Below are positions 29,973 to 40,545 of a stretch of DNA of 64,000 bases, piece by piece. The notes below the pieces were generated by a model. That model searched no databases. It was given only the letters and a program-made list of their open reading frames with translations, and was not told the origin of the DNA. The stretch lies in contig NIVC01000004.1 in NCBI GenBank assembly GCA_002269645.1, positions 186,001-250,000 of the forward strand, in the 5' to 3' direction. The translations under genes were made by a program, and so were the position numbers. Positions within the stretch are counted from its first letter, which is position 1, and every line of letters starts with the position of its first letter. This stretch comes from Macrostomum lignano (Eukaryota).

Positions 29973-30290
29973 TCAATAATTAATTAATTTAATTAACTTC
30001 GATTGACAACAATAAGCGTTTATATGAAATTAGATGTCATTGAAATGTATTTAGATGGTTGGATGGGGGACCTTTATTGGCTTAATTTTAAAAAAATGCT
30101 CCCAGCCTGAACTCGGTTTCTTGTCCAGAATTCTAGGTTTTTAGCCATCCATGGTGCGGCGCTGGGGTGTTGGTTAGAATAGGGGCCACGCAGGCTGCCA
30201 CTGGGTGCTGCAAGAGACGGCATAAAAATTGCCATCCAAGTTGAGAAGACAATTAGTTAGTGAGAAAGCCCAGCTAGCCAGCAGACTCTG

Positions 30291-30782
30291 ACCCGAGCAC
30301 CTGTCGGCCAGCGCAAAGACTCTCTGAAGACCCGAGCACCTGTCAGCCAGCGCAGAGACTCTCTGAAGACCCGAGCACCTGTCGGCAAGCGCAGAGACTC
30401 TCTGAAGACCCGAGCACCTGTCGGCCAGCGCAAAGACTCTCTGAAGACCCGAGCACCTGTCGGCCAGCGCAAAGACTCTCTGAAGACCCGAGCACCTGTC
30501 AGCCAGCGCAGAGACTCTCTGAAGACCCGAGCACCTGTCGGCCAGCGCAGAGACTCTCTGAAGACCCGAGCACCTGTCGGCCAGCGCAGAGACTCTCTGA
30601 AGACCCGAGCACCTGTCAGCCAGCGCAGAGACTCTCTGAAGACCCGAGCACCTGTCGGCAAGCGCAGAGACTCTCTGAAGACCCGAGCACCTGTCGGCAA
30701 GCGCAGAGACTCTCTGAAGACCCGAGCACCTGTCGGCAAGCGCAGAGACTCTCTGAAGACCCGAGCACCTGTCGGCCAGCGC
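30291..30782. repeat. 39-bp minisatellite ending ~20 bp upstream of the TRP start codon
   Basis: Unit GACCCGAGCACCTGTCGGCCAGCGCAGAGACTCTCTGAA. Confidence 0.95.
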
Positions 30783-30802
30783 ATCACACCGAAAGCTCCA
30801 GC

Positions 30803-33800
30803 ATGGCGGAGAGGCGCCGCAAACAGGGCCGGCCGGGCGGCTCCCGGATGGCCGTCATCACCGGTCACAGTCCGGTGCTGAATGCCTACTACGACGGCGA
30901 TCTGGACAAGCTGCGTGAGCTGCTGGTGGCGGACGAAGACAACCTGGTCAACCCCGGCAACACCGGCCAGCCTCTGTGCTTCCTGGCCGCGCGAGAGAAC
31001 CGCAAGGGGGTCCTGCGCGTCATCCACGGCGTCAGCGGCGACCTGCGCTACCTTGGCTACACGGACAACGAGGGCGAAAACTGCCTGTTCACTGCCATCC
31101 GCTCCAGCAGCCTGCGGGCCGCCAAGTTCCTCCTGAGCGTCGGCTTCGACCCGAACCAACAAAACCGACACGGCCAGACGCCGCTGCACATCGCCTGCAT
31201 CGTCGACGACCCGCACTTCGTGCACCTCCTGCTCCATTCTGGCGCGGATCCAAACGTCTGCGACTCCAGTGGCAATTTGCCGCTGCACCGCGCCTGCCAG
31301 GAGAACCAGCCGCGAATGGTGCGGATGCTGCTGCTGCACACCCGCGACATCAACGCCAAGGCCGCGGCGAACCGGACGGCAATGCACTTTGCTGCCCTGT
31401 CGCAGTCGCTGGACCTGCTGACCCTCCTCCTTGCCGCCGGGGCCAGCTGCCACGTCTTTGATTCTGACCGCCGCTCGCCCATGGACATTGTGCTGTCCCT
31501 GGGCAACCTTATCATCATGACGGGCTTGTCTGAGTACTTCACGCACCGCGTGAAGGGCACCATAGACGATCTGGAGACGCTGCAGCACTCTCCAGAATTC
31601 GGCGAAGTGCTCACTACGTTGCAGGCGGTGGACGACGACCTGGAGAACCCGGTTCAGCTCGTGTGCGACTTCCACGGCCTGCAGCCGGTGGAGCTGACGG
31701 AAGACATTCAGGCGGGCATCCTGCAGAAGATCCGCGATCGCGAGCGCCTCGACTTTATGCAGTTTCGCAGTCTGCTCCGTCACGTGATCAGCGGCGACTT
31801 GTCCACCAAGCTGGTAGAAAGAGGCATCCTGCCAGAGTTCGCCGAGATGGTCGCCAAGCAGGTGCTGTACCGCGAAGACGTCGAAATGCTGCGCCTGCTG
31901 ATGTTTGGCACCACGCTGTGGCGGCACCTGTCGGCCGAGCTGGAGAAGCATATCATGACTCTGTACAACGACTGCGGCGAGCTGGGCTCCACCGGCATGC
32001 AGAACATGCGCTGCCGGTTCTTCGGCGACCGAAAGACTGGCCAGGTTTCGGAGGCGCTGATGCTGAAGTTCTTTGCCAAGTTTCTCAACATGTCCAACAT
32101 GCTGCCGTGCGAGCATGAGCACAGCAGCTTCATGCGCAACCCCATCAAGACCCTGCCAGTGTGGTCCGTGCTCACCGGCCGCTTCCTACTCACGGAGGAG
32201 CTGCTGAAGGCCGAGCAATTCGACATGCTGCCCCTGGGCCTGTTCTGCATCCGGCTGCTGCGCCGGCTGGCCAAGAGCCGCCAGATGCCGCGGCCTTCGA
32301 AGAGCCTCATGAACAGCGTCGCTGACAAGATCGAGAGCGTCTGCATGAAGCTGCTGCGGGCTGTGGACAAACTTGACGTAAGCGAGAAGAAGGCCGTGTC
32401 CATAAACTACATCCGGCAGAAGATGCCGGCGTACTCCAACCTCACCTGCATGTCGCTGGCTGCCGGAGGCGAGTGCGAAGCCTTCATGGTGATGAACACC
32501 GTGCAGACCGCTGTGGAGCGCGAGTGGTACCAGAAGCTGTTCCATCTCTCCCATTGGCGCCGGGAGATCATCATCCTCCTGGGGATCGTGCCGTACAACC
32601 CCATTCTCTACTGGGCGCTGCAAATCTCGGCCAGCAAGGACGCGGGCGACACCGTGCTGCACTCGCAAGAAGAGGCTCCCGTCCCAGTGGCGCAAGACAC
32701 GCCCGACTCGAGCGGGCACGGGCACGAAGCCGGGCAGAAGGAGAAGACGATGCCTACCATACAGGAAGAAGGCGCCGCTGAGGATCCCGATCACATCGAC
32801 GAGCATCATGACTTGGTTCACGAGGATCCCATGATTGAGCATCACGATGAGCACCACGGTGACAGCCTGCCCCACGACGAGAGAGATAGAGACCAGGAGC
32901 ACCTGATTGAGCCAGAAGGTCACGGCCACGGTCACGGGCACGAAGAGGCTAAGAGTCAAAGTAACGGTCACGGTCATGGTCACGGTCACGGTCACGGTCA
33001 CGGTCACGGTCACGGTCACGGTCACGCGCATGACAAGCCAGAGGCTGCGCCGAGGTCACGGGTGGTGCAGGCAATCATAAACTACGGGTCCACCTGCACG
33101 GAGTTCTACCTGACGCCTTGTGTTCGATTTCACTACCACATCATCTCGCACTTGGCCTTCATCGTCATGTTCTCCTACGTGATGATTGTGCACTTCAGCT
33201 ACCGACTGCACGTTGTCGAGACCATCGTGTACCTGTTTGTTCTCGGCTTCCTGCTCGAGGAGCTGCACGAGATGAACGTCGCCAGACAGAAGGGCACCAT
33301 GAAGAGCTACTTCCGGGACGGCTGGAACATGATTGACAACTTCGGCATCGCGACCTGCCTGCTGGGCTTCTGCATGCGGTTGGTCCGCCTGCCCCTGGCG
33401 AAGCACACCGACATCCAGCATATTTCCTTCGGTGACGACTACTTCTGGTGGACCCGATTCGTGCTCATAATATCCTGCCTGGTGTTCTGGCTGCGCCTGC
33501 TGTACGTGTCCACCGTGATGGTGACGCTCGGTCCCAAGCTGAAGATGATCTCCGTGATGATCACACGCGACCTCGTGCCGTTCCTCATCATGCTGGCCAT
33601 CATGATGTTCGGCTTCGGGCTCGTCATCCACGGCCTGCTGTTTCCCAACGGGTTCGCCATGGGCAATCCACACAAGAGGTCCGGGCTGCGAATATTCGAG
33701 AGCACCTTCCGCATCACCTTCTACGCCATGGTTGGCGACTACAGCATGGACATCATCACCGGCAACGACTGCGAGAAGGACGCCCGCTGCCCGCACCCGG

Positions 33801-34291
33801 TGGGCAAGGTGGTCGTGCCCAACATCATTATGACGGTCTACATCATCATCGTGACCATCCTGTTGCTGAACCTTATCGTGGCCTCCTTCTCCAAGACTGT
33901 TGACGAGATTCAAAAGAAGTCCTTCGCCATGTGGCAGTTCGAGCGCTACGACCTGCTTGAGGAGTTCCGCGTCCGGTCGCCGGTGCCGCCGCCCTTCAAC
34001 ATCATCGGCGAGCTGCTGCGCGGCCTGGCCGCCCTGGTCACCATGGTGCGCAGGCGCAGCGGCGCCGTCCCCTTCAGCAAGACGAAGTTCAACAAGCACC
34101 GGGTGATCAAGTTCCTCACCCTGCAAGCCTTCGCCCTGCGCGGCCAGCGCAAGCAGCTGGTGGGCGAGCTGGAAATCGAGGACCCGGACAAGTTGCTGCC
34201 AGAGATCGGGCGGCAGCTCAAGCGGGCCGAGCAGCAGCTGCAGTTCCTGCAGAAGATCTCGGGCGAAGAGGAAGCCATCGATGATGATTAG
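30803..34291 (+). CDS. Intronless ankyrin-repeat TRPM-like cation channel, 1162 aa, with a His/Gly-rich insert
   Basis: About 6 ankyrin repeats (GQTPLHIAC, GNLPLHRAC); MHR3/4-like segments (PVWSVLTGR, LTCMSLAA..VQTAVEREW); 6 TM segments (YFRDGWNMID, LGPKLKMISVM); pore YAMVGDY with paired Cys; TRP helix WQFERY followed by PVPPPF. Confidence 0.92.
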   Translation: MAERRRKQGRPGGSRMAVITGHSPVLNAYYDGDLDKLRELLVADEDNLVNPGNTGQPLCFLAARENRKGVLRVIHGVSGDLRYLGYTDNEGENCLFTAIRSSSLRAAKFLLSVGFDPNQQNRHGQTPLHIACIVDDPHFVHLLLHSGADPNVCDSSGNLPLHRACQENQPRMVRMLLLHTRDINAKAAANRTAMHFAALSQSLDLLTLLLAAGASCHVFDSDRRSPMDIVLSLGNLIIMTGLSEYFTHRVKGTIDDLETLQHSPEFGEVLTTLQAVDDDLENPVQLVCDFHGLQPVELTEDIQAGILQKIRDRERLDFMQFRSLLRHVISGDLSTKLVERGILPEFAEMVAKQVLYREDVEMLRLLMFGTTLWRHLSAELEKHIMTLYNDCGELGSTGMQNMRCRFFGDRKTGQVSEALMLKFFAKFLNMSNMLPCEHEHSSFMRNPIKTLPVWSVLTGRFLLTEELLKAEQFDMLPLGLFCIRLLRRLAKSRQMPRPSKSLMNSVADKIESVCMKLLRAVDKLDVSEKKAVSINYIRQKMPAYSNLTCMSLAAGGECEAFMVMNTVQTAVEREWYQKLFHLSHWRREIIILLGIVPYNPILYWALQISASKDAGDTVLHSQEEAPVPVAQDTPDSSGHGHEAGQKEKTMPTIQEEGAAEDPDHIDEHHDLVHEDPMIEHHDEHHGDSLPHDERDRDQEHLIEPEGHGHGHGHEEAKSQSNGHGHGHGHGHGHGHGHGHGHAHDKPEAAPRSRVVQAIINYGSTCTEFYLTPCVRFHYHIISHLAFIVMFSYVMIVHFSYRLHVVETIVYLFVLGFLLEELHEMNVARQKGTMKSYFRDGWNMIDNFGIATCLLGFCMRLVRLPLAKHTDIQHISFGDDYFWWTRFVLIISCLVFWLRLLYVSTVMVTLGPKLKMISVMITRDLVPFLIMLAIMMFGFGLVIHGLLFPNGFAMGNPHKRSGLRIFESTFRITFYAMVGDYSMDIITGNDCEKDARCPHPVGKVVVPNIIMTVYIIIVTILLLNLIVASFSKTVDEIQKKSFAMWQFERYDLLEEFRVRSPVPPPFNIIGELLRGLAALVTMVRRRSGAVPFSKTKFNKHRVIKFLTLQAFALRGQRKQLVGELEIEDPDKLLPEIGRQLKRAEQQLQFLQKISGEEEAIDDD

Positions 34292-34951: not shown

Positions 34952-35035
34952 TGTCAGAAGTGGGATTCGAACCCACGCCCTCAGAAGAGGACTGCGACCT
35001 GAACGCAGCGCCTTAGACCACTCGGCCATCCTGAC
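34952..35035 (-). tRNA. trnL-CAG: tRNA-Leu(CAG), intronless, long variable arm
   Basis: Minus strand reads GTCAGGATGGCCGAGTGGTCTAAGGCGCTGCGTTCAGGTCGCAG...GGGTTCGAATCCCACTTCTGACA. Anticodon stem CTGCG/CGCAG around TTCAGGT; A and B boxes present; T6 Pol III terminator at 34946-34941. Confidence 0.97.
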
Positions 35036-35668
35036 TTGAGTATTAAGGCTGGAGCTGAGTGCTTATGAAAATTACACTAGAGAATGCTTTGCAAAGATAA
35101 GAGATTGCCGTCAACCAGCCGATAGGCAGCTACCCAAAATTAGGCTAATCGATCTATTTTTAGCTGGCCACACAATTATGTACGCAACTGCATGGAACAT
35201 GTAGTATTTACATGTAGACTTCGAAATTCCACATTTATTAACTATTAACTACTAAATTAACTATTATTTGTGAGTTTAAAAACAACTGTTTTTGAGAACA
35301 CCTAGGTACACGGTAATTAAAAATTAATTTTAAATGACAAATTTTAAGTAAGTTTTGTAGTTCACATGTAGATGTAATTATGCATCATCTAATAATGAAA
35401 TTTTATATATCGTTTAAAAACCAAAAGAGTGACCAATGAAATGTTCAAATAACTACAAGTGTATACAAGGTTACAGTTTACTTTATAAGATTACCAACAG
35501 CATTTTTCGATAGAAAAACAAGCTATAAGTTATAAAAAATAATTGGCTCGGGCACAAAAATGGAATAAAAATCTTGGACGAAAATTCTTTTATATACTTT
35601 ATTTTATATTAATGCTGCAAGTTCTTTCAACTTTGCAATTGAAAAAAAATTTTTTATGCTGCTGAGTC

Positions 35669-36700
35669 ATGTCACACGATTCTCTGACGGTAAGAGAACT
35701 GCGCATGGCATTGCGTGCTAAAGGCTTGCAAACCGTAGGCAACAAGCGCACCCTATTGGAGAGACTTCTGCAGTCTCAAGGCTCAGTGGACACGGGACCC
35801 ATCGATGAATCGGACACCAGCAATCCATCGAGAAGGCGAGGGCCCGACGACGGGACGGCGGCGGTCGGCGGCGGCGAGGCGGCAGGAGGGACCCACGGTA
35901 CTGGCGACCTGGACCGGGACCTGCGGGAGGCAGAGAAGCAGCTGCGCTTGCTGACAATTCGTCGGGACCAAGCGCGCCTGGAAGCCGAGATCCGTCAGCT
36001 GGACCGCCGTGCCGATGAGCCGCAGCGGCGACCTGCAAATGCCTCAGTGCCCGGTGAGTACTCAAGCCTTGAGGATTTAGTGCTGGGACCTACTGTCAGA
36101 GTGCCGGATGAGGTGCAGCAGGCGGGGCAGCAGCACCCGAATGCGTACCGGGTGCCGGAGTTCATCAGCGCTCGCGAGCGGCTGGCGCTGAACAAGTCAA
36201 GTCAAGCCAGCAAGCAGGCCGCCCTGGACAGCCTCTCGGTTGGCGACTGGATCACCGGAAACGCCAACGCGCTGATGCAGATGCTGAAGGACGGCAGACT
36301 CCTCGTCCTCCGTGATGGCGCTATCGACATGTCGGAGCTGCTGGAGTACCTGAAGCACACGGCAAAAATTGGCGACCTCCTCGATCTCGGATTCGACCGC
36401 GGCCGCGTTTTGCGCTATGATGATGAGTACAGAGCGCAGCAGGCTGAGGCCGGCGCCTGGGACAGCTCGGTGACCGACCTGGGTCTGGTGGCGGCACACC
36501 TGATGGCTCCGAATCTTCAACTGCAGGCCGGCTCAGCGGGCAGGTCATCAGCAAAGCGACCGGTCTGCTTCGACTTCAACAAGGTGTCCGGCTGCCAGCG
36601 CAACCCGTGTCGTTTCGCACACAGTTGTAGGCGCTGCGGCCAGGCGCACTCGGAGGCCTCCTTCCACAGAGCGGAGGGCGGCCAGGCGGCAAAAAACTGA
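35669..36700 (+). CDS. gag: Retrotransposon Gag-like protein (SAP domain, coiled coil, C-terminal Cys/His zinc finger), 343 aa
   Basis: SAP consensus LTVRELRMALRAKGLQTVGNKRTLLERL; C-terminal CFDFNKVSGCQRNPCRFAHSCRRCGQAH. Confidence 0.85.
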   Translation: MSHDSLTVRELRMALRAKGLQTVGNKRTLLERLLQSQGSVDTGPIDESDTSNPSRRRGPDDGTAAVGGGEAAGGTHGTGDLDRDLREAEKQLRLLTIRRDQARLEAEIRQLDRRADEPQRRPANASVPGEYSSLEDLVLGPTVRVPDEVQQAGQQHPNAYRVPEFISARERLALNKSSQASKQAALDSLSVGDWITGNANALMQMLKDGRLLVLRDGAIDMSELLEYLKHTAKIGDLLDLGFDRGRVLRYDDEYRAQQAEAGAWDSSVTDLGLVAAHLMAPNLQLQAGSAGRSSAKRPVCFDFNKVSGCQRNPCRFAHSCRRCGQAHSEASFHRAEGGQAAKN

Positions 36701-36772
36701 TGGACGGGGTTCAGCGGCAGGGGTCTCTTAACATCGAGTCGCCCGCCCCTGCCGCTGCTTCTGTCGAACCCC
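36691..36772 (+). promoter_or_regulatory. Putative -1 programmed ribosomal frameshift signal between gag and pol
   Basis: Slippery heptamer A_AAA_AAC (36691-36697) in the gag frame; 8-nt spacer; stems 36706-36712/36766-36772 (7 bp) and 36713-36723/36746-36756 (11 bp). The -1 frame is the RT frame. Confidence 0.75.
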
Positions 36773-38672
36773 AAAAGGAGGGCGACTCAAGCGGGACCCT
36801 CTCCACCGACTTGCGCCTTGAAGCCTGGCGCCTCGAGCTGGCCGACACGGAGATGCCAACGAAGCTCGCGCAGTTCGTTTTGAGCGGTGTGAAGGACGGT
36901 TTCCGCATCAGGAACGTCAGCAGTCCGGTGGACTCTGTCGAGCAGGAGAACTACGGCTCCATCAATCAGCATCGAGTCGAGGTTCAGGCCCAAGTCCGCC
37001 GGGAACTGCAAGCTGGAAGATATCGCGTTAGCGCCAAGCCGACTATTGTGAGCGCGCTGGGCGCCATTCCGAAGTCCGGGGGCGGCATCCGGCTCATCCA
37101 TGACTGCAGCCAGCCCCAGGGTCGGGCCGTCAATGATTTGTTTGCTTGCCAGCAGAAGCTTCGGTTTTCTTCGGCGGCTGCCTTTGCCAGGAAGCTGCGC
37201 CAGGACATGTACATGTGTAAAGTCGACCTGAGCCAGGCCTACCGGTCTTGCGGCATTCACCCGGACGACCACTGCCTCACCGGTCTGAAGTTCACGTTCG
37301 AGGGCGAGGCGGAGCCGACCTACATGGTGGACACCCGGCTGCCGTTCGGAGCGGCAGCATCCGTGAGCAGCTTTTTCCAGATCAGCAACGCCATTCGGTT
37401 TATGATGCTCAAGCGCAGGTTCTTCAACTTCGAGGTCTACATGGACGACTTCGGCTTCGCGGGTTCGCTGACTGAGTGCTGGCGCTTTTACAACAAGCTG
37501 ACGCAGCTGCTGCAGAGCCTGGGCCTGACTGTCAACTGGAAGAAGTGCGTGCAGCCGACGCAGGAGATGTGCTTCCTGGGCATTCAGTTCAACACGCAGT
37601 CGGGGCTGATGAGTCTGCCAGAGACGAAGGTCGAGGAGCTGCAGGCCTGCCTTGACCTCTGCTGCACAAAGCGGCGGATCTCCAAGCACGAGTTGCAGAA
37701 GCTGGTGGGCAGGCTCAACTGGGCCTGTCAGGTGGTCTGCAACGGCCGGCCGTTTCTGCGAGACCTGATCGACCGCGTCAACGACTTGTCGAGCCCGAAG
37801 GATCGGCTGTTGGTGGATGGCCAGTTCAAGAGCGTCCTGAGCTGGTGGAAAGTTGCTCTGCGGCAGCAGCCAGGTCGCGAGCTCTGGCCTGCTGCCAGGA
37901 GGCCGGTTGCCATGGAGACGGACGCCTGTCTGGTGGGGCAGCGGCTGTTCTGAGAGATCCGGCTGGTTCTGACTGGTGCTATCTGCAGTGGGAAGTCGAC
38001 GCTGGGAGCGAGTTCAGCGATTGCTGCATCAACTACAAGGAGGCTGCCGCGGTGCTGCTGGCGTTGCTGCACTGGCGCCGTCAACTGCACAACTGCCGGA
38101 TCGCTGTCTACTGCGACAATGCTGCAGCCTGCGCGATTATCAACAAGGGGTCATCCAGGGAGCCCCGGCTGTTGCGGCTGCTGCAGACTGTTGCTCTGCT
38201 GTGCCTAAAGCAGAACATTGTGGTCACCGCCCACCATGTGCCCGGCCGGTTTCAGCTGTTTGCCGACGCCGCCTCCCGCCTGCATTGTCGGCAGGAGTTG
38301 CTGAATTTTCTGTTGCGAGCCTATGCAACCGCCTCTGTTTGCCCGCATGAATTTGCGGGACATGCGCTTAGCCCTGCCTCCGCCGCCTTTCTTTTTTTAC
38401 AGGTCGCCTCCCTGGGTCTCTCGACGCTGCCGCCGCCAAACTGCTCCAGCAGGCCTACGCATCATCGTCCAAGAGGTCGCTGTCATCTGCTGTCCGCTCC
38501 TGGCAACGCTTCTGCCGAGAGCGGCGGCTCGACCCACTCGGCTGTCGGGCGGAGGATCTCGCAAACTACGTCGGCCAGCTCGTGGACGGCCGGCTCAGCT
38601 CCTTCGGCAGCGTCCGCGTGCATATCAGCGCTCTGTCCGCCAGTTTCCGACTGGCGGGAGTGCCGGACCTGA
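36700..38672 (+). CDS. pol: Reverse transcriptase-RNase H (pol), interrupted by a 1-nt deficit in a G run at 37935-37938
   Basis: RT motifs RLIHDCS, KVDLSQAY, RLPFG and YMDDF in ORF 36700..37953. RNase H TDA is in the RT frame; INYKE, YCDN and ADAASR continue in ORF 37845..38672. One extra G gives METDACLVGAAAVL. Confidence 0.88.
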
Positions 38673-39379
38673 CCAGGCACCCGCTGCTGCACCTGGTTCT
38701 GCGGGGAGCCAAGCGCGAGCTGGGGTCGGAGCCGAGTCGCAAGCTGCCGGTGTCGCCAGACCTTTTGTCGAGACTGCGGCTGCAAGTCGACAGCTCGAAT
38801 CCTGTGCAGGCGGCCTGCTGGGCTGCGGTCATGTGCGCTTGGTGGGGGATGTTCAGGAAGTCCAGCCTGCTGCCGCGAGGGCGCGCCGATCCGCCAGTGC
38901 TGCGACTGAGCTCGCTGGCAAGATGCCCCGAAGGCCTGCTTCTGACGTCCAGCTTCGGGAAGACCAACCAGTACGGTCGGACGCATCGCGTGCTGCTGCC
39001 AGAGTTGACTTCGGGCCACCCGCTCTGTCCAGTGGCGGCACTGCGAGGCCACCTGCGCTGCAACCGGCTGAAGCGGCGGCAGCAGGGCCTGTTTTCATTC
39101 AGCAGTGGATCGTCCGGTCACGCATCTCTGACGTCCCGGAGGCTCGATGTACAGTTCAGGTCGTGGCTCGGCAAGGCGGGAGTGCCGGCGGCCGGGTTTT
39201 CTGTGCATAGCCTGCGGCGAGGCGCCGCCACCTGGGCGGCCCGGTGCGGCCTGTCAGTGCGGGAGATCCAGTGCGTGGGTGACTGGCGCAGCGACGCAGT
39301 GAGCGTCTACCTGTCCCGCGATGACACGGCTCTGCGTGCGGCGCGCAAGCTTGCTGTTGCGGCGCTTGACCAAACCTGA
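38403..39379 (+). CDS. Tyrosine recombinase (integrase) of the retrotransposon; no in-frame ATG for its N-terminal domain, probably expressed by splicing from gag
   Basis: The frame is open from 38372. N-terminal core-binding region AYASSSKRSLSSAVRSWQRFC; catalytic R (FRKSS), K (KTNQ), HSLRRG, GDWRS and VYL all intact. Acceptor TTTCTTTTTTTACAG ends at 38402. Confidence 0.88.
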
Positions 39380-40545
39380 CGTGTTTCGCGGTTTTTTTTG
39401 AAGAAAGGTTTTGGGCTCCTTTTTTGTTTGCTTGTCCGCTTTTGCTTGCCTCTGCTTGGTCTGCTTTTGCTCTAGTCTGTTTTCTTGCTGCTTTTGGTGT
39501 TGGGGGGAGTGCATGGCAGCCTTCCCTGTCCTCCTCGCTGTTCCTGCGCCATTTGCTGCTCTTGAGCTTGCTGCGTTCGTCTTCTGGGGTGGGCAGTGGG
39601 CACTAATGGCTAGTTTGCGCGGGCTGCGCTAACTGGCGTTTGTGTACGCTGCCCACCCCTGCCCCTCCCCCGCGGCTTTCCCCCACCCCGGTGTTGGGGG
39701 GGGGGGGTTGCGTGGCGGGGGTTTTATACCCCGCGGTTGGCTCTTTGGCCTCGCTGTCGCATTGCAATTGAAAAAAAAATTTTTTTTCGTATCCTGTCAC
39801 TCTTTTAATCCTGCTTTGATCCGTTCTAACTGTTGTCAATAATGCTTGAATATTTTCTCGTAATCGGTCTGAAATATACGGGGGGGAGTGCATGGCAGCC
39901 TTCCCTGTCCTCCTCGCTGTTCCTGCGCCATTTGCTGCTCTTGAGCTTGCTGCGTTCGTCTTCTGGGGTGGGCAGTGGGCACTAATGAAATTTTATATAT
40001 CGTTTAAAAACCAAAAGAGTGACCAATGAAATGTTCAAATAACTACAGGTGTATACAAGGTTACAGTTTACTTTATAAGATTACCAACAGCATTTTTCGA
40101 TAGAAAAACAAGCTATAAGTTATAAAAAATAATTGGCTCGGGCACAAAAATGGAATAAAAATCTTGGACGAAAATTCTTTTATATACTTTATTTTATATT
40201 AATGCTGCAAGTTCTTTCCGCATTGACTAGAGGGTTATACGAATTGACTCAACCAGATAAATTCATTAATATCAAAATTATTTGCAAAGGAGCGTAAAAT
40301 GCTTGTTTAGTGAAATAATAACAAAATACTTATTTAATTAACTCATTATATTACTAAATCTGTTTAAGATAACAAATTATTGAACGTTAAATATAGTTAA
40401 TAATAGTTCCACTTCTTTTACAGCCTTTAAAAGCACATTGTCTTTTAGAGTCGTCTACGTTTTTCGAATTCCCCTGAGCAACAAACTTTTATTGCTGCTC
40501 GAATCAAATTGTCACCTTGTCATGTAAATAGTTCCATGCAATAAA

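What the first reader, a model, noticed from the sequence alone, without database searches (positions are those of the whole stretch)
36691..36772. Canonical -1 ribosomal frameshift cassette at the gag/pol boundary
Seen: GCA AAA AAC TGA gives A_AAA_AAC in the correct register, and the -1 frame reads AAA AAA CTG ATG GAC into RT with no stop. Eight nt downstream, GGGGTTC pairs with GAACCCC and AGCGGCAGGGG pairs perfectly with CCCCTGCCGCT. Established: heptamer plus a 5-9-nt spacer plus a stable structure is the standard -1 PRF layout. The overlapping TGATG also allows termination-reinitiation as an alternative.
Basis: partly seen in the sequence, partly recalled or inferred. Interest (0 to 1): 0.75.

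Follow-up and report, generated by a model that had tools for sequence, protein, structure and literature searches.

The report
Retrotransposon pseudoknot spans frameshift and readthrough
A jumping gene of the Ngaro type carries a slippery run and a predicted RNA pseudoknot that likely shift ribosomes one base back into its reverse transcriptase, and a related family keeps the same predicted pseudoknot behind an in-frame stop codon that is likely read through instead, which would make a natural test of how one RNA fold serves two kinds of recoding.

Summary
Observation confirmed and extended. The site is the gag/RT junction of an Ngaro-type tyrosine-recombinase retrotransposon (35,633-39,987). 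A_AAA_AAC sits in register before gag's UGA; the stem folds at -38.3 kcal/mol (z -4.2).

Of 20 family representatives from this genome (RT 40-100% identical), 15 have RT in the -1 frame. 14 of those have a slippery heptamer, but only 2 have the UGAUG overlap, so reinitiation is unlikely. The other 5 have gag and RT in frame across a single UGA-CUN, a readthrough context. One of them keeps the same pseudoknot, with compensatory changes across three lineages. Seven of the -1 representatives have no detectable 3' structure.

The recombinase is probably made by splicing from gag: phase-matched sites, plus one thin GT..AG junction contig. This scan noted that splice, and a gag readthrough, before in another genome (e1-7561852). 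No translation was measured. This copy's RT/RNase H frame is broken. The cassette alone is ordinary; the shared pseudoknot across a frameshift/readthrough switch is the new part.

The parts
35633..39987 (+). Ngaro-type tyrosine-recombinase retrotransposon (gag, RT/RNase H, YR; split direct repeats)
35633..35655 (+). remnant of terminal repeat A1 (matches 39,762-39,784; about 190 nt long in copy L193)
35666..36700 (+). gag-like ORF, 344 codons, first AUG 35,669; N-terminal SAP domain (PF02037, E 5.8e-7)
36051..36059 (+). predicted 5' splice site, cut 36,053|36,054, phase 1 in gag
   Evidence: same site in L193, phase 1 in 17 of 20 families
36566..36649 (+). Cys/His (zinc-knuckle-like) end of gag, used as the anchor across families
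36691..36697 (+). slippery heptamer A_AAA_AAC, in register
36698..36702 (+). gag stop UGA overlapping an RT-frame AUG; first 5 nt of the 8-nt spacer (36,698-36,705)
36706..36712 (+). lower stem S1a, 5' strand (pairs 36,766-36,772)
36713..36723 (+). stem S1, 5' strand (11 bp with 36,746-36,756)
36746..36756 (+). stem S1, 3' strand
36766..36772 (+). lower stem S1a, 3' strand
36780..36788 (+). pseudoknot stem S2, 3' strand (9 bp)
36631..37953 (+). RT frame (-1 to gag); RVT_1; ends early in this copy at a frame break near 37,930-37,950
37656..38672 (+). frame holding the RNase H-like part after the break
   Evidence: RT_RNaseH E 5e-4; one frame with RT in L193
38385..38405 (+). predicted 3' splice site (pyrimidine tract, cut 38,402|38,403, phase 1 to YR); contains U_UUU_UUA at 38,393-38,399
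38372..39379 (+). tyrosine recombinase ORF, no AUG before the catalytic region starts (PF00589 E 2.6e-4, below Pfam's cut-off; HSLRRG motif)
39502..39608 (+). terminal repeat B1
39762..39784 (+). part of repeat A2 that matches the A1 remnant
39881..39987 (+). terminal repeat B2 (100% identical to B1)

Best explanation
This is the gag/RT junction of an Ngaro-type retrotransposon, where a share of ribosomes likely slip one base back on A_AAA_AAC, helped by a predicted pseudoknot 8 nt downstream, and would make a Gag-RT/RNase H fusion while the rest stop at UGA. Shown here: the element's identity, the frames, the heptamer's register, its conservation, and the pairings. Inferred: (1) ribosomes with tRNA-Lys/tRNA-Asn on AAA AAC pause when the lower stem (8 nt on) and the S1/S2 pseudoknot reach the mRNA entry channel, and re-pair in the -1 frame; (2) this sets a Gag:Gag-RT ratio; (3) sister families reach the same fusion by reading through an in-frame UGA-CUN, one of them (L079 family) with the homologous pseudoknot 15 nt after the first base of the stop; (4) the recombinase is made separately, by splicing gag's SAP-containing start onto the YR frame.
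For: Heptamer: 13 A_AAA_AAC and 1 A_AAA_AAU among 15 representatives with RT in the -1 frame; RT identities to the window 40-100%. Genome-wide, a zinc-knuckle-to-heptamer pattern gave 40 matches against 0 for the reversed control (a few are unrelated). A_AAA_AAC is among the most shift-prone eukaryotic heptamers, and 5-9 nt is the usual spacer (PMC5009743 passages).

Structure: pseudoknot score exceeded all 100 shuffles for L025, L031 and L039, and was reached by 1 of 100 for L079. Across three lineages the 10-bp S1 core shows three two-sided changes (G-C/A-U, G-C/C-G, C-G/G-C), and the 7-bp S2 core two (A-U/G-C; G-C/G-U/A-U). The lower stem is kept and longer in the 84%-identical family while its neighbours changed.

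Outside this genome: 1 of 5 metagenome loci (L201) has A_AAA_AAC in register one codon before gag's stop; the other 4 have an in-frame UGA.
Against: No translation product, ribosome profile or reporter was available.

Seven of 15 -1 representatives (L071, L073, L076, L081, L082, L083, L084; z -1.2 to +1.7) show no 3' fold beyond shuffles, and L064 is borderline (z 0.16; pseudoknot score reached by 9 of 100 shuffles). A folded stimulator is therefore not general. One representative (L082) has a non-slippery A_AAA_GAC. K-N at gag's end could in part be protein conservation.

The pseudoknot scanner is my own crude score, written after seeing this site. The helix comparison was anchored by hand and covers only three lineages. 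In L039 and L079 the lower stem is absent and the structure starts 11-15 nt downstream, beyond the usual spacer. Four of 7 L079-family copies carry a C.A mismatch in S1.

This copy's own RT/RNase H frame is broken.
Confidence: 0.8

Rival explanations
1. RT is made by termination-reinitiation at the overlapping UGAUG, with the downstream structure acting as in the SART1 retrotransposon.
For: UGAUG is kept in the window's family and its 84% sister, and as UAAUG in decayed 74% copies. SART1 needs a structure downstream of its stop (PMC10275272 passages). An overlapping -1 frame AUG can give low reinitiation in reporters (PMC9841425 passage).
Against: Only 2 of 15 -1 representatives have the overlap; the first RT-frame Met lies at codon 30-276, or is missing in 330 codons, in 11 of 15. 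The L039 Met at codon 11 is lost in its sister L185. No UGGGA lies in the 140 nt upstream. The heptamer is kept where the AUG is not.
Confidence: 0.08
2. Frameshifting happens on heptamer plus stop alone, and the pseudoknot is kept for another job such as packaging, dimerisation or reverse transcription. This would also explain why it survives in a readthrough family.
For: Seven of 15 -1 representatives have no fold beyond shuffles. Four of 5 in-frame-UGA representatives have no pseudoknot. The S1 core starts 14-16 nt after the first base of the stop.
Against: The structure stays at nearly the same distance from the stop in three lineages. The window's lower stem is at the canonical 8 nt. Most related families lack the fold, which fits an optional recoding enhancer better than an essential packaging signal.
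Confidence: 0.2
3. RT comes from its own mRNA (internal promoter, cis-splicing or leader trans-splicing), and the heptamer is incidental.
For: [quoted passage not shown] U-rich runs follow the stop in many families. Splice signals are in use elsewhere in these elements.
Against: No AUG near the start of the RT frame in most families. The one acceptor-like site upstream of the heptamer (36,669) is out of frame with the gag donor and is lost in part of the 84% family. Heptamer or UGA-CU is kept in 19 of 20 representatives.
Confidence: 0.07
4. In the in-frame families the UGA is an inactivating mutation or a true stop, not a readthrough signal.
For: Readthrough was not measured. All fetched L079-family copies are damaged elsewhere. 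Tca2 shows that UGA plus a predicted pseudoknot need not give readthrough.
Against: The UGA is at the homologous place right after the gag zinc knuckle, followed by CU in 5 of 5 representatives. Their RTs are 46-53% identical to the window's and well diverged from each other. Many near-identical copies exist (55 pattern matches against 1 control, some unrelated). UGA_C is a weak stop and UGA_CUA favours readthrough (PMC9841425). In-frame UGA recurs in 4 of 5 metagenome loci from two sources, UGA-C in 3 of them from one source.
Confidence: 0.12

Closest known systems
Ngaro superfamily of tyrosine-recombinase retrotransposons (order DIRS)
   Same: gag-like ORF, RT/RNase H, YR, A1-ORFs-B1-A2-B2 split direct repeats, no methyltransferase hit, overlapping ORFs (definitions from PMC8547959 passages; PMC3783388 introduction).
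   Different: The papers I could read do not describe the gag/RT signal. The only statement on frameshifting I found (Poulter and Butler 2015, quoted in PMC13003380) concerns the RT/YR overlap, where these data favour splicing. Gag here carries a SAP domain.
Retroviral and LTR-retrotransposon -1 frameshift cassettes (heptamer, spacer, pseudoknot; PEG10, PNMA3; MMTV A_AAA_AAC recalled)
   Same: Same layout: shift-prone heptamer, 8-nt spacer, H-type pseudoknot (PMC5009743 passages).
   Different: It occurs in a YR element with no protease or integrase. The stop follows the heptamer directly. There is a two-tier first stem with a 9-nt bulge, and relatives swap to readthrough.
MuLV gag-pol readthrough pseudoknot; alphavirus UGA plus 3' structure; UGA_CUA(G) readthrough motif
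   Same: In-frame stop between gag and pol with a leaky context and, in one family, a 3' pseudoknot (PMC8310308 passages; PMC9841425).
   Different: UGA-CUN rather than UAG. The spacer is longer (12 nt after the stop, against 8 in MuLV). The pseudoknot is homologous to one used behind a -1 heptamer in sister families.
SART1 and caliciviral stop-start reinitiation
   Same: Overlapping stop and start with a nearby RNA structure.
   Different: The overlap is not conserved beyond two sister families, and there is no TURBS-like motif.
Candida Tca2 (gag-UGA-pol with predicted pseudoknot)
   Same: In-frame UGA and predicted pseudoknot in a retrotransposon.
   Different: Tca2 is an LTR element (abstract), and its flanks did not direct readthrough in yeast: a caution for the inferred readthrough here.

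Membership tests
Ngaro retrotransposons | RT and RNase H in one pol ORF | tested here: met
   RVT_1 E 1e-13 and RT_RNaseH E 2e-5 in one 680-codon frame of near-identical copy L193; split by a break in the window's copy
Ngaro retrotransposons | tyrosine recombinase ORF 3' of pol, no DDE integrase or protease | tested here: met
   PF00589 E 2.3-2.6e-4 (below the gathering cut-off) with the H-x-x-R motif; no integrase or protease family hit
Ngaro retrotransposons | split direct repeats A1-ORFs-B1-A2-B2 | tested here: met
   Full pattern in L193 and L189; in the window B1/B2 are 107 nt and identical, A1 is cut to 23 nt
Ngaro retrotransposons | no adenine methyltransferase domain (which marks DIRS1-like elements) | tested here: met
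   No methyltransferase family at E 0.1 on the 680-codon pol of L193; absence of a hit is weak evidence
Ngaro retrotransposons | RT groups with reference Ngaro rather than PAT elements, which also have split repeats (recalled) | not tested
   No reference Ngaro or PAT sequences were fetched; the tree holds only this genome's families
Canonical -1 PRF signal | X_XXY_YYZ heptamer in register with an open -1 frame | tested here: met
Canonical -1 PRF signal | 5-9 nt spacer to a stable 3' structure | tested here: met
   8 nt to the lower stem; z -4.24. In the L039 family the structure starts at 11 nt
Canonical -1 PRF signal | structure conserved with covariation | tested here: met
   Five pairs with two-sided changes across three lineages, hand-anchored; not present in most more distant families
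Canonical -1 PRF signal | measured frameshifting that depends on heptamer and structure | not testable with these tools
   Needs a reporter or ribosome profiling
TURBS/SART1-type termination-reinitiation | conserved AUG within about 20-30 nt of the stop | tested here: not met
   Overlap in 2 of 15, AUG within about 30 nt in 4 of 15
TURBS/SART1-type termination-reinitiation | upstream 18S-pairing motif (UGGGA, motif recalled) | tested here: not met
   None in 36,560-36,700
Programmed stop-codon readthrough (sister families) | single in-frame stop between open gag and pol with a leaky context | tested here: met
   UGA-CUC/CUG/CUA in 5 of 5 representatives
Programmed stop-codon readthrough (sister families) | measured readthrough | not testable with these tools
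   Needs a reporter

The most novel reading that the evidence does not exclude
Within one clade of Ngaro retrotransposons, the Gag-RT fusion switched from -1 frameshifting (A_AAA_AAC) to UGA-CUN readthrough while keeping the same H-type pseudoknot, which some readthrough families later lost. One RNA fold thus serves as both frameshift and readthrough stimulator in nature. The recombinase, long assumed to come from a second frameshift, is instead a spliced SAP-Gag/YR fusion.
Probability: 0.45. Interest if true: 0.72.

Novelty: new variant of a known kind. Interest (0 to 1): 0.5.

Why it matters
How YR retrotransposons express three overlapping ORFs from one RNA is only guessed at in the papers I could read. 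These data give a concrete and testable scheme: recoding for RT, splicing for YR. For recoding specialists, homologous pseudoknots sitting behind a slippery heptamer in two lineages and behind a leaky UGA in a third are a ready-made swap experiment on what distinguishes frameshift from readthrough stimulators, and they document a gag-pol switch between the two mechanisms among close relatives. The -1 cassette taken alone is ordinary.

Tried and rejected
Rfam at E 1 gave only two weak, unrelated matches far below gathering scores. A genome pattern search for the S2 inverted repeat was swamped by an unrelated repeat (415 matches per strand) and was not used. Viral contigs held no relative (36 pattern hits, none confirmed).

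No run is on record as RNA. Laying assembled contigs on the window's element (runs X1, X4, X7, X17) showed no splice joint; nor did the L039-family element in X3, X6, X7, X11. Contigs drop rare forms, so this is no evidence either way.

U_UUU_UUA at the RNase H/YR overlap was considered as a second frameshift site and rejected as general: it is in register in only 3 of 24 loci, whereas a phase-1 acceptor is in 21 of 24 (my note says 22 and is corrected here). An acceptor-like site at 36,669 was rejected for RT expression (wrong phase, not conserved). An automatic MAFFT alignment misplaced the L079-family helices, so pairs were compared by anchoring. The S1 rows of L095, L099 and L100 were mis-anchored and redone. 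The tree cannot say whether readthrough arose once or twice (p-AU 0.46 for one clade).

Literature: ten searches found no paper describing the gag/RT signal, readthrough or a gag-YR splice in Ngaro elements; one search matched only unrelated words. The primary Ngaro papers (Goodwin and Poulter 2004; Poulter and Butler 2015) and Gao et al. 2003 (not held) could not be read and may already mention the gag/RT frameshift.

Full report
What the site is. The finding lies in a 4.35-kb GC-rich element inserted in AT-rich DNA of an animal-like genome (an ankyrin/TRP channel ORF is nearby). It has a gag-like ORF with a SAP domain (35,666-36,700), an RT frame (RVT_1), an RNase H-like frame and a tyrosine recombinase ORF. 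B1/B2 repeats of 107 nt and a 23-nt A remnant flank the ORFs; copies L193 and L189 show the full A1-ORFs-B1-A2-B2 order. That is the layout given for Ngaro elements (PMC8547959 passages; PMC3783388 introduction). I did not separate Ngaro from PAT by phylogeny. Six copies are 99.7-100% identical over the junction. The window's copy has a frame break near 37,930-37,950: the -1 frame is open 420 codons here and 660 in L193. Contigs of the four runs laid do not carry the break.

Observation. Heptamer, register, open -1 frame, 8-nt spacer, both stems and the UGAUG overlap are as described. The hairpin folds at -38.3 kcal/mol, z -4.24, 0 of 200 shuffles. The motif alone is common (27 of 100 shuffles), but only 1 of 237 long frames in the window ends in a slippery heptamer.

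Frameshift or reinitiation. An RT search of the genome scored 150 of 645 candidates; I fetched 70 of them and further loci later. Junctions were located from the gag zinc knuckle. Copies where the knuckle was not found or where indels broke the register were set aside (marked 'nozf', or with the wrong frame). I then chose 20 representatives, of which L065 and L070 are one family. Fifteen have RT in the -1 frame: 13 with A_AAA_AAC, one with A_AAA_AAU, one (L082) with a non-slippery A_AAA_GAC. The stop follows directly, or after one codon in L065/L070. Only L025 and L031 have the overlapping AUG; L073 and L039 have a Met at codons 5 and 11; the other 11 have it at codon 30-276 or not within 330 codons. 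No UGGGA lies upstream. The heptamer, not the AUG, is what is kept. A_AAA_AAC is listed among the most shift-prone heptamers and 5-9 nt as the usual spacer (PMC5009743 passages).

The structure. With my own crude H-type scan of 100 nt after the stop (19 representatives, 100 dinucleotide shuffles each), L025, L031 and L039 beat all shuffles. L079 was matched by 1, L077 by 2, L064 by 9, and the other 13 were unremarkable. Hand-anchored helices show a homologous 10-bp S1 core and 7-bp S2 core in the window, L039 and L079 lineages, with three two-sided changes in S1 and two in S2. Against this: a C.A mismatch in 4 of 7 L079-family copies and one in S2 of L100; one further S2 change in decayed copies may be CpG loss; only three lineages contribute. 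The lower stem is limited to the window's family and its 84% sister, where it is longer. Seven -1 representatives have no fold beyond shuffles, so the conserved core of the signal is heptamer plus stop, and the pseudoknot is a clade-specific addition.

A switch to readthrough. Five representatives (L051, L055, L059, L063, L079) have gag and RT in one frame, separated by a single UGA followed by CUC, CUG or CUA. UGA_C is a weak stop and UGA_CUA raises readthrough (PMC9841425 passages). In the RT tree (26 rows) these families form, with the window, L031 and L039, a clade supported 100/100 against the 13 other frameshift rows. The root is by midpoint only, but frameshifting lies on both sides of that branch and so is the simplest ancestral state. 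The order inside the clade is unresolved, and one origin of readthrough is not rejected (p-AU 0.46). The L079 family has the in-frame UGA-CUC in all 10 copies listed and the homologous pseudoknot with its core 15 nt from the first base of the stop, against 16 and 14 in the frameshift lineages; three of those copies are truncated before the 3' strand of S2, and all are damaged elsewhere. The other four readthrough representatives lack the fold. In metagenome contigs (5 loci, three sources), one has A_AAA_AAC in register and four have an in-frame UGA, three of them UGA-C from one assembly. Both junction types therefore occur elsewhere. Tca2 is a caution: its UGA and predicted pseudoknot did not direct readthrough in yeast (PMC2194720 abstract).

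The recombinase. A review quoted in PMC13003380 (passage) supposes that YR is reached by frameshifting from RT/RH. Here a slippery heptamer is in register at that overlap in 3 of 24 loci with a YR hit, while 21 of 24 have a pyrimidine tract and CAG|G in phase 1 at the start of the YR frame (26 loci examined). In gag, 21 of 24 G|GTRAG hits are phase 1 (one site counted in two frames), against 3 of 8 in the RT region, and 17 of 20 families have such a donor. Caveats: acceptor phase may be partly fixed by protein conservation, and Gly-Glu codons favour phase 1. One contig of run X7 joins exactly this donor and acceptor in an L081-family element: GT..AG, 2,401 nt skipped, depth 2.4, 26 letters on the short side, which is below the tool's caution limit; the run is only guessed to be RNA. 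The join is in frame and was not found in the assembly. It was not seen in three other runs or for two other families. In the window the predicted intron is 36,054-38,402. After I had formed this reading (notes), the scan's index returned e1-7561852, an unchecked note of the same gag-YR splice and a gag readthrough in a diatom-like genome. It agrees but is not independent proof.

Mechanism and odds. Shown: anatomy, frames, conservation, pairings. Inferred: -1 tandem slippage on A_AAA_AAC giving Gag-RT/RH (about 0.8); the pseudoknot as stimulator (about 0.7); readthrough in the sister families (about 0.8); spliced YR (about 0.7).

Literature seen: passages of PMC3783388 (plus its introduction), PMC8547959, PMC13003380, PMC6681497, PMC9210276, PMC3266345, PMC5009743 (first 300,000 characters searchable), PMC10275272, PMC8310308, PMC9841425 and bioRxiv 10.1101/2021.01.25.428050; abstract of PMC2194720. 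None describes the gag/RT signal, readthrough or the splice in Ngaro elements, and ten searches found no such paper. The primary Ngaro papers were not available and may propose the gag/RT frameshift; no supplements were read. MMTV's use of A_AAA_AAC, the UGGGA motif and PAT's split repeats are recalled, not from calls.

Verdict. The cassette is real and probably functional, and by itself a new member of a well-known kind. The shared pseudoknot across a frameshift/readthrough switch, with a probably spliced recombinase, lifts it to a new variant of a known kind. Interest 0.5.

Noticed in passing
window 36,054-38,402; L197 4,833-7,233: Predicted phase-1 intron joining the SAP-containing start of gag to the recombinase ORF; donor and acceptor kept in most families, one thin GT..AG junction contig in run X7.
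   Followed up: partly
L051, L055, L059, L062, L063, L079 gag/RT junctions; L198-L200, L202: Sister families with a single in-frame UGA (mostly UGA-CU or UGA-C) between gag and RT instead of a frameshift site.
   Followed up: yes
first 120 nt after the gag stop in L051, L055, L059, L063, L065, L070, L071, L073, L077, L081-L084 (also L075, L076): UUUUA runs occur 1-3 times just after the stop in 15 of 20 representatives, mostly those without the pseudoknot (none in L025, L031, L039, L064, L079), and appear in different reading frames. Possibly a nucleotide-level signal such as a protein-binding recoding stimulator; unexplained.
   Followed up: partly
window 35,393-35,635 and 39,983-40,225: A 243-bp, 98% identical direct repeat of AT-rich flank surrounds the element, and A1 is cut to 23 nt. 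A contig of run X17 joins across the element, which would fit an empty allele or mis-laying on the repeat.
   Followed up: no
window 37,930-37,950: Frame break between RT and RNase H in this copy; three of five other near-identical copies have a 680-codon open frame.
   Followed up: partly
window 34,952-35,035 (-): tRNA-Leu(CAG) gene about 600 bp upstream of the element; whether these elements favour tRNA genes was not tested.
   Followed up: no
L039 family, 55-70 nt after the stop: An extra 5-bp hairpin lies in the loop between S1 and the 3' strand of S2, giving a three-stem pseudoknot.
   Followed up: no
L015, L018, L019: Old copies (74% identical) with heavy CG-to-TG/CA change, suggesting past methylation-driven decay.
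   Followed up: no
L197 215-8,815: Two Ngaro-type elements of different families lie head to tail, about 200 bp apart.
   Followed up: no
window 30,278-34,291 (+): A 1,337-codon uninterrupted frame with ankyrin repeats and an ion-transport domain (TRP-like channel) ends 1.3 kb upstream of the element.
   Followed up: no
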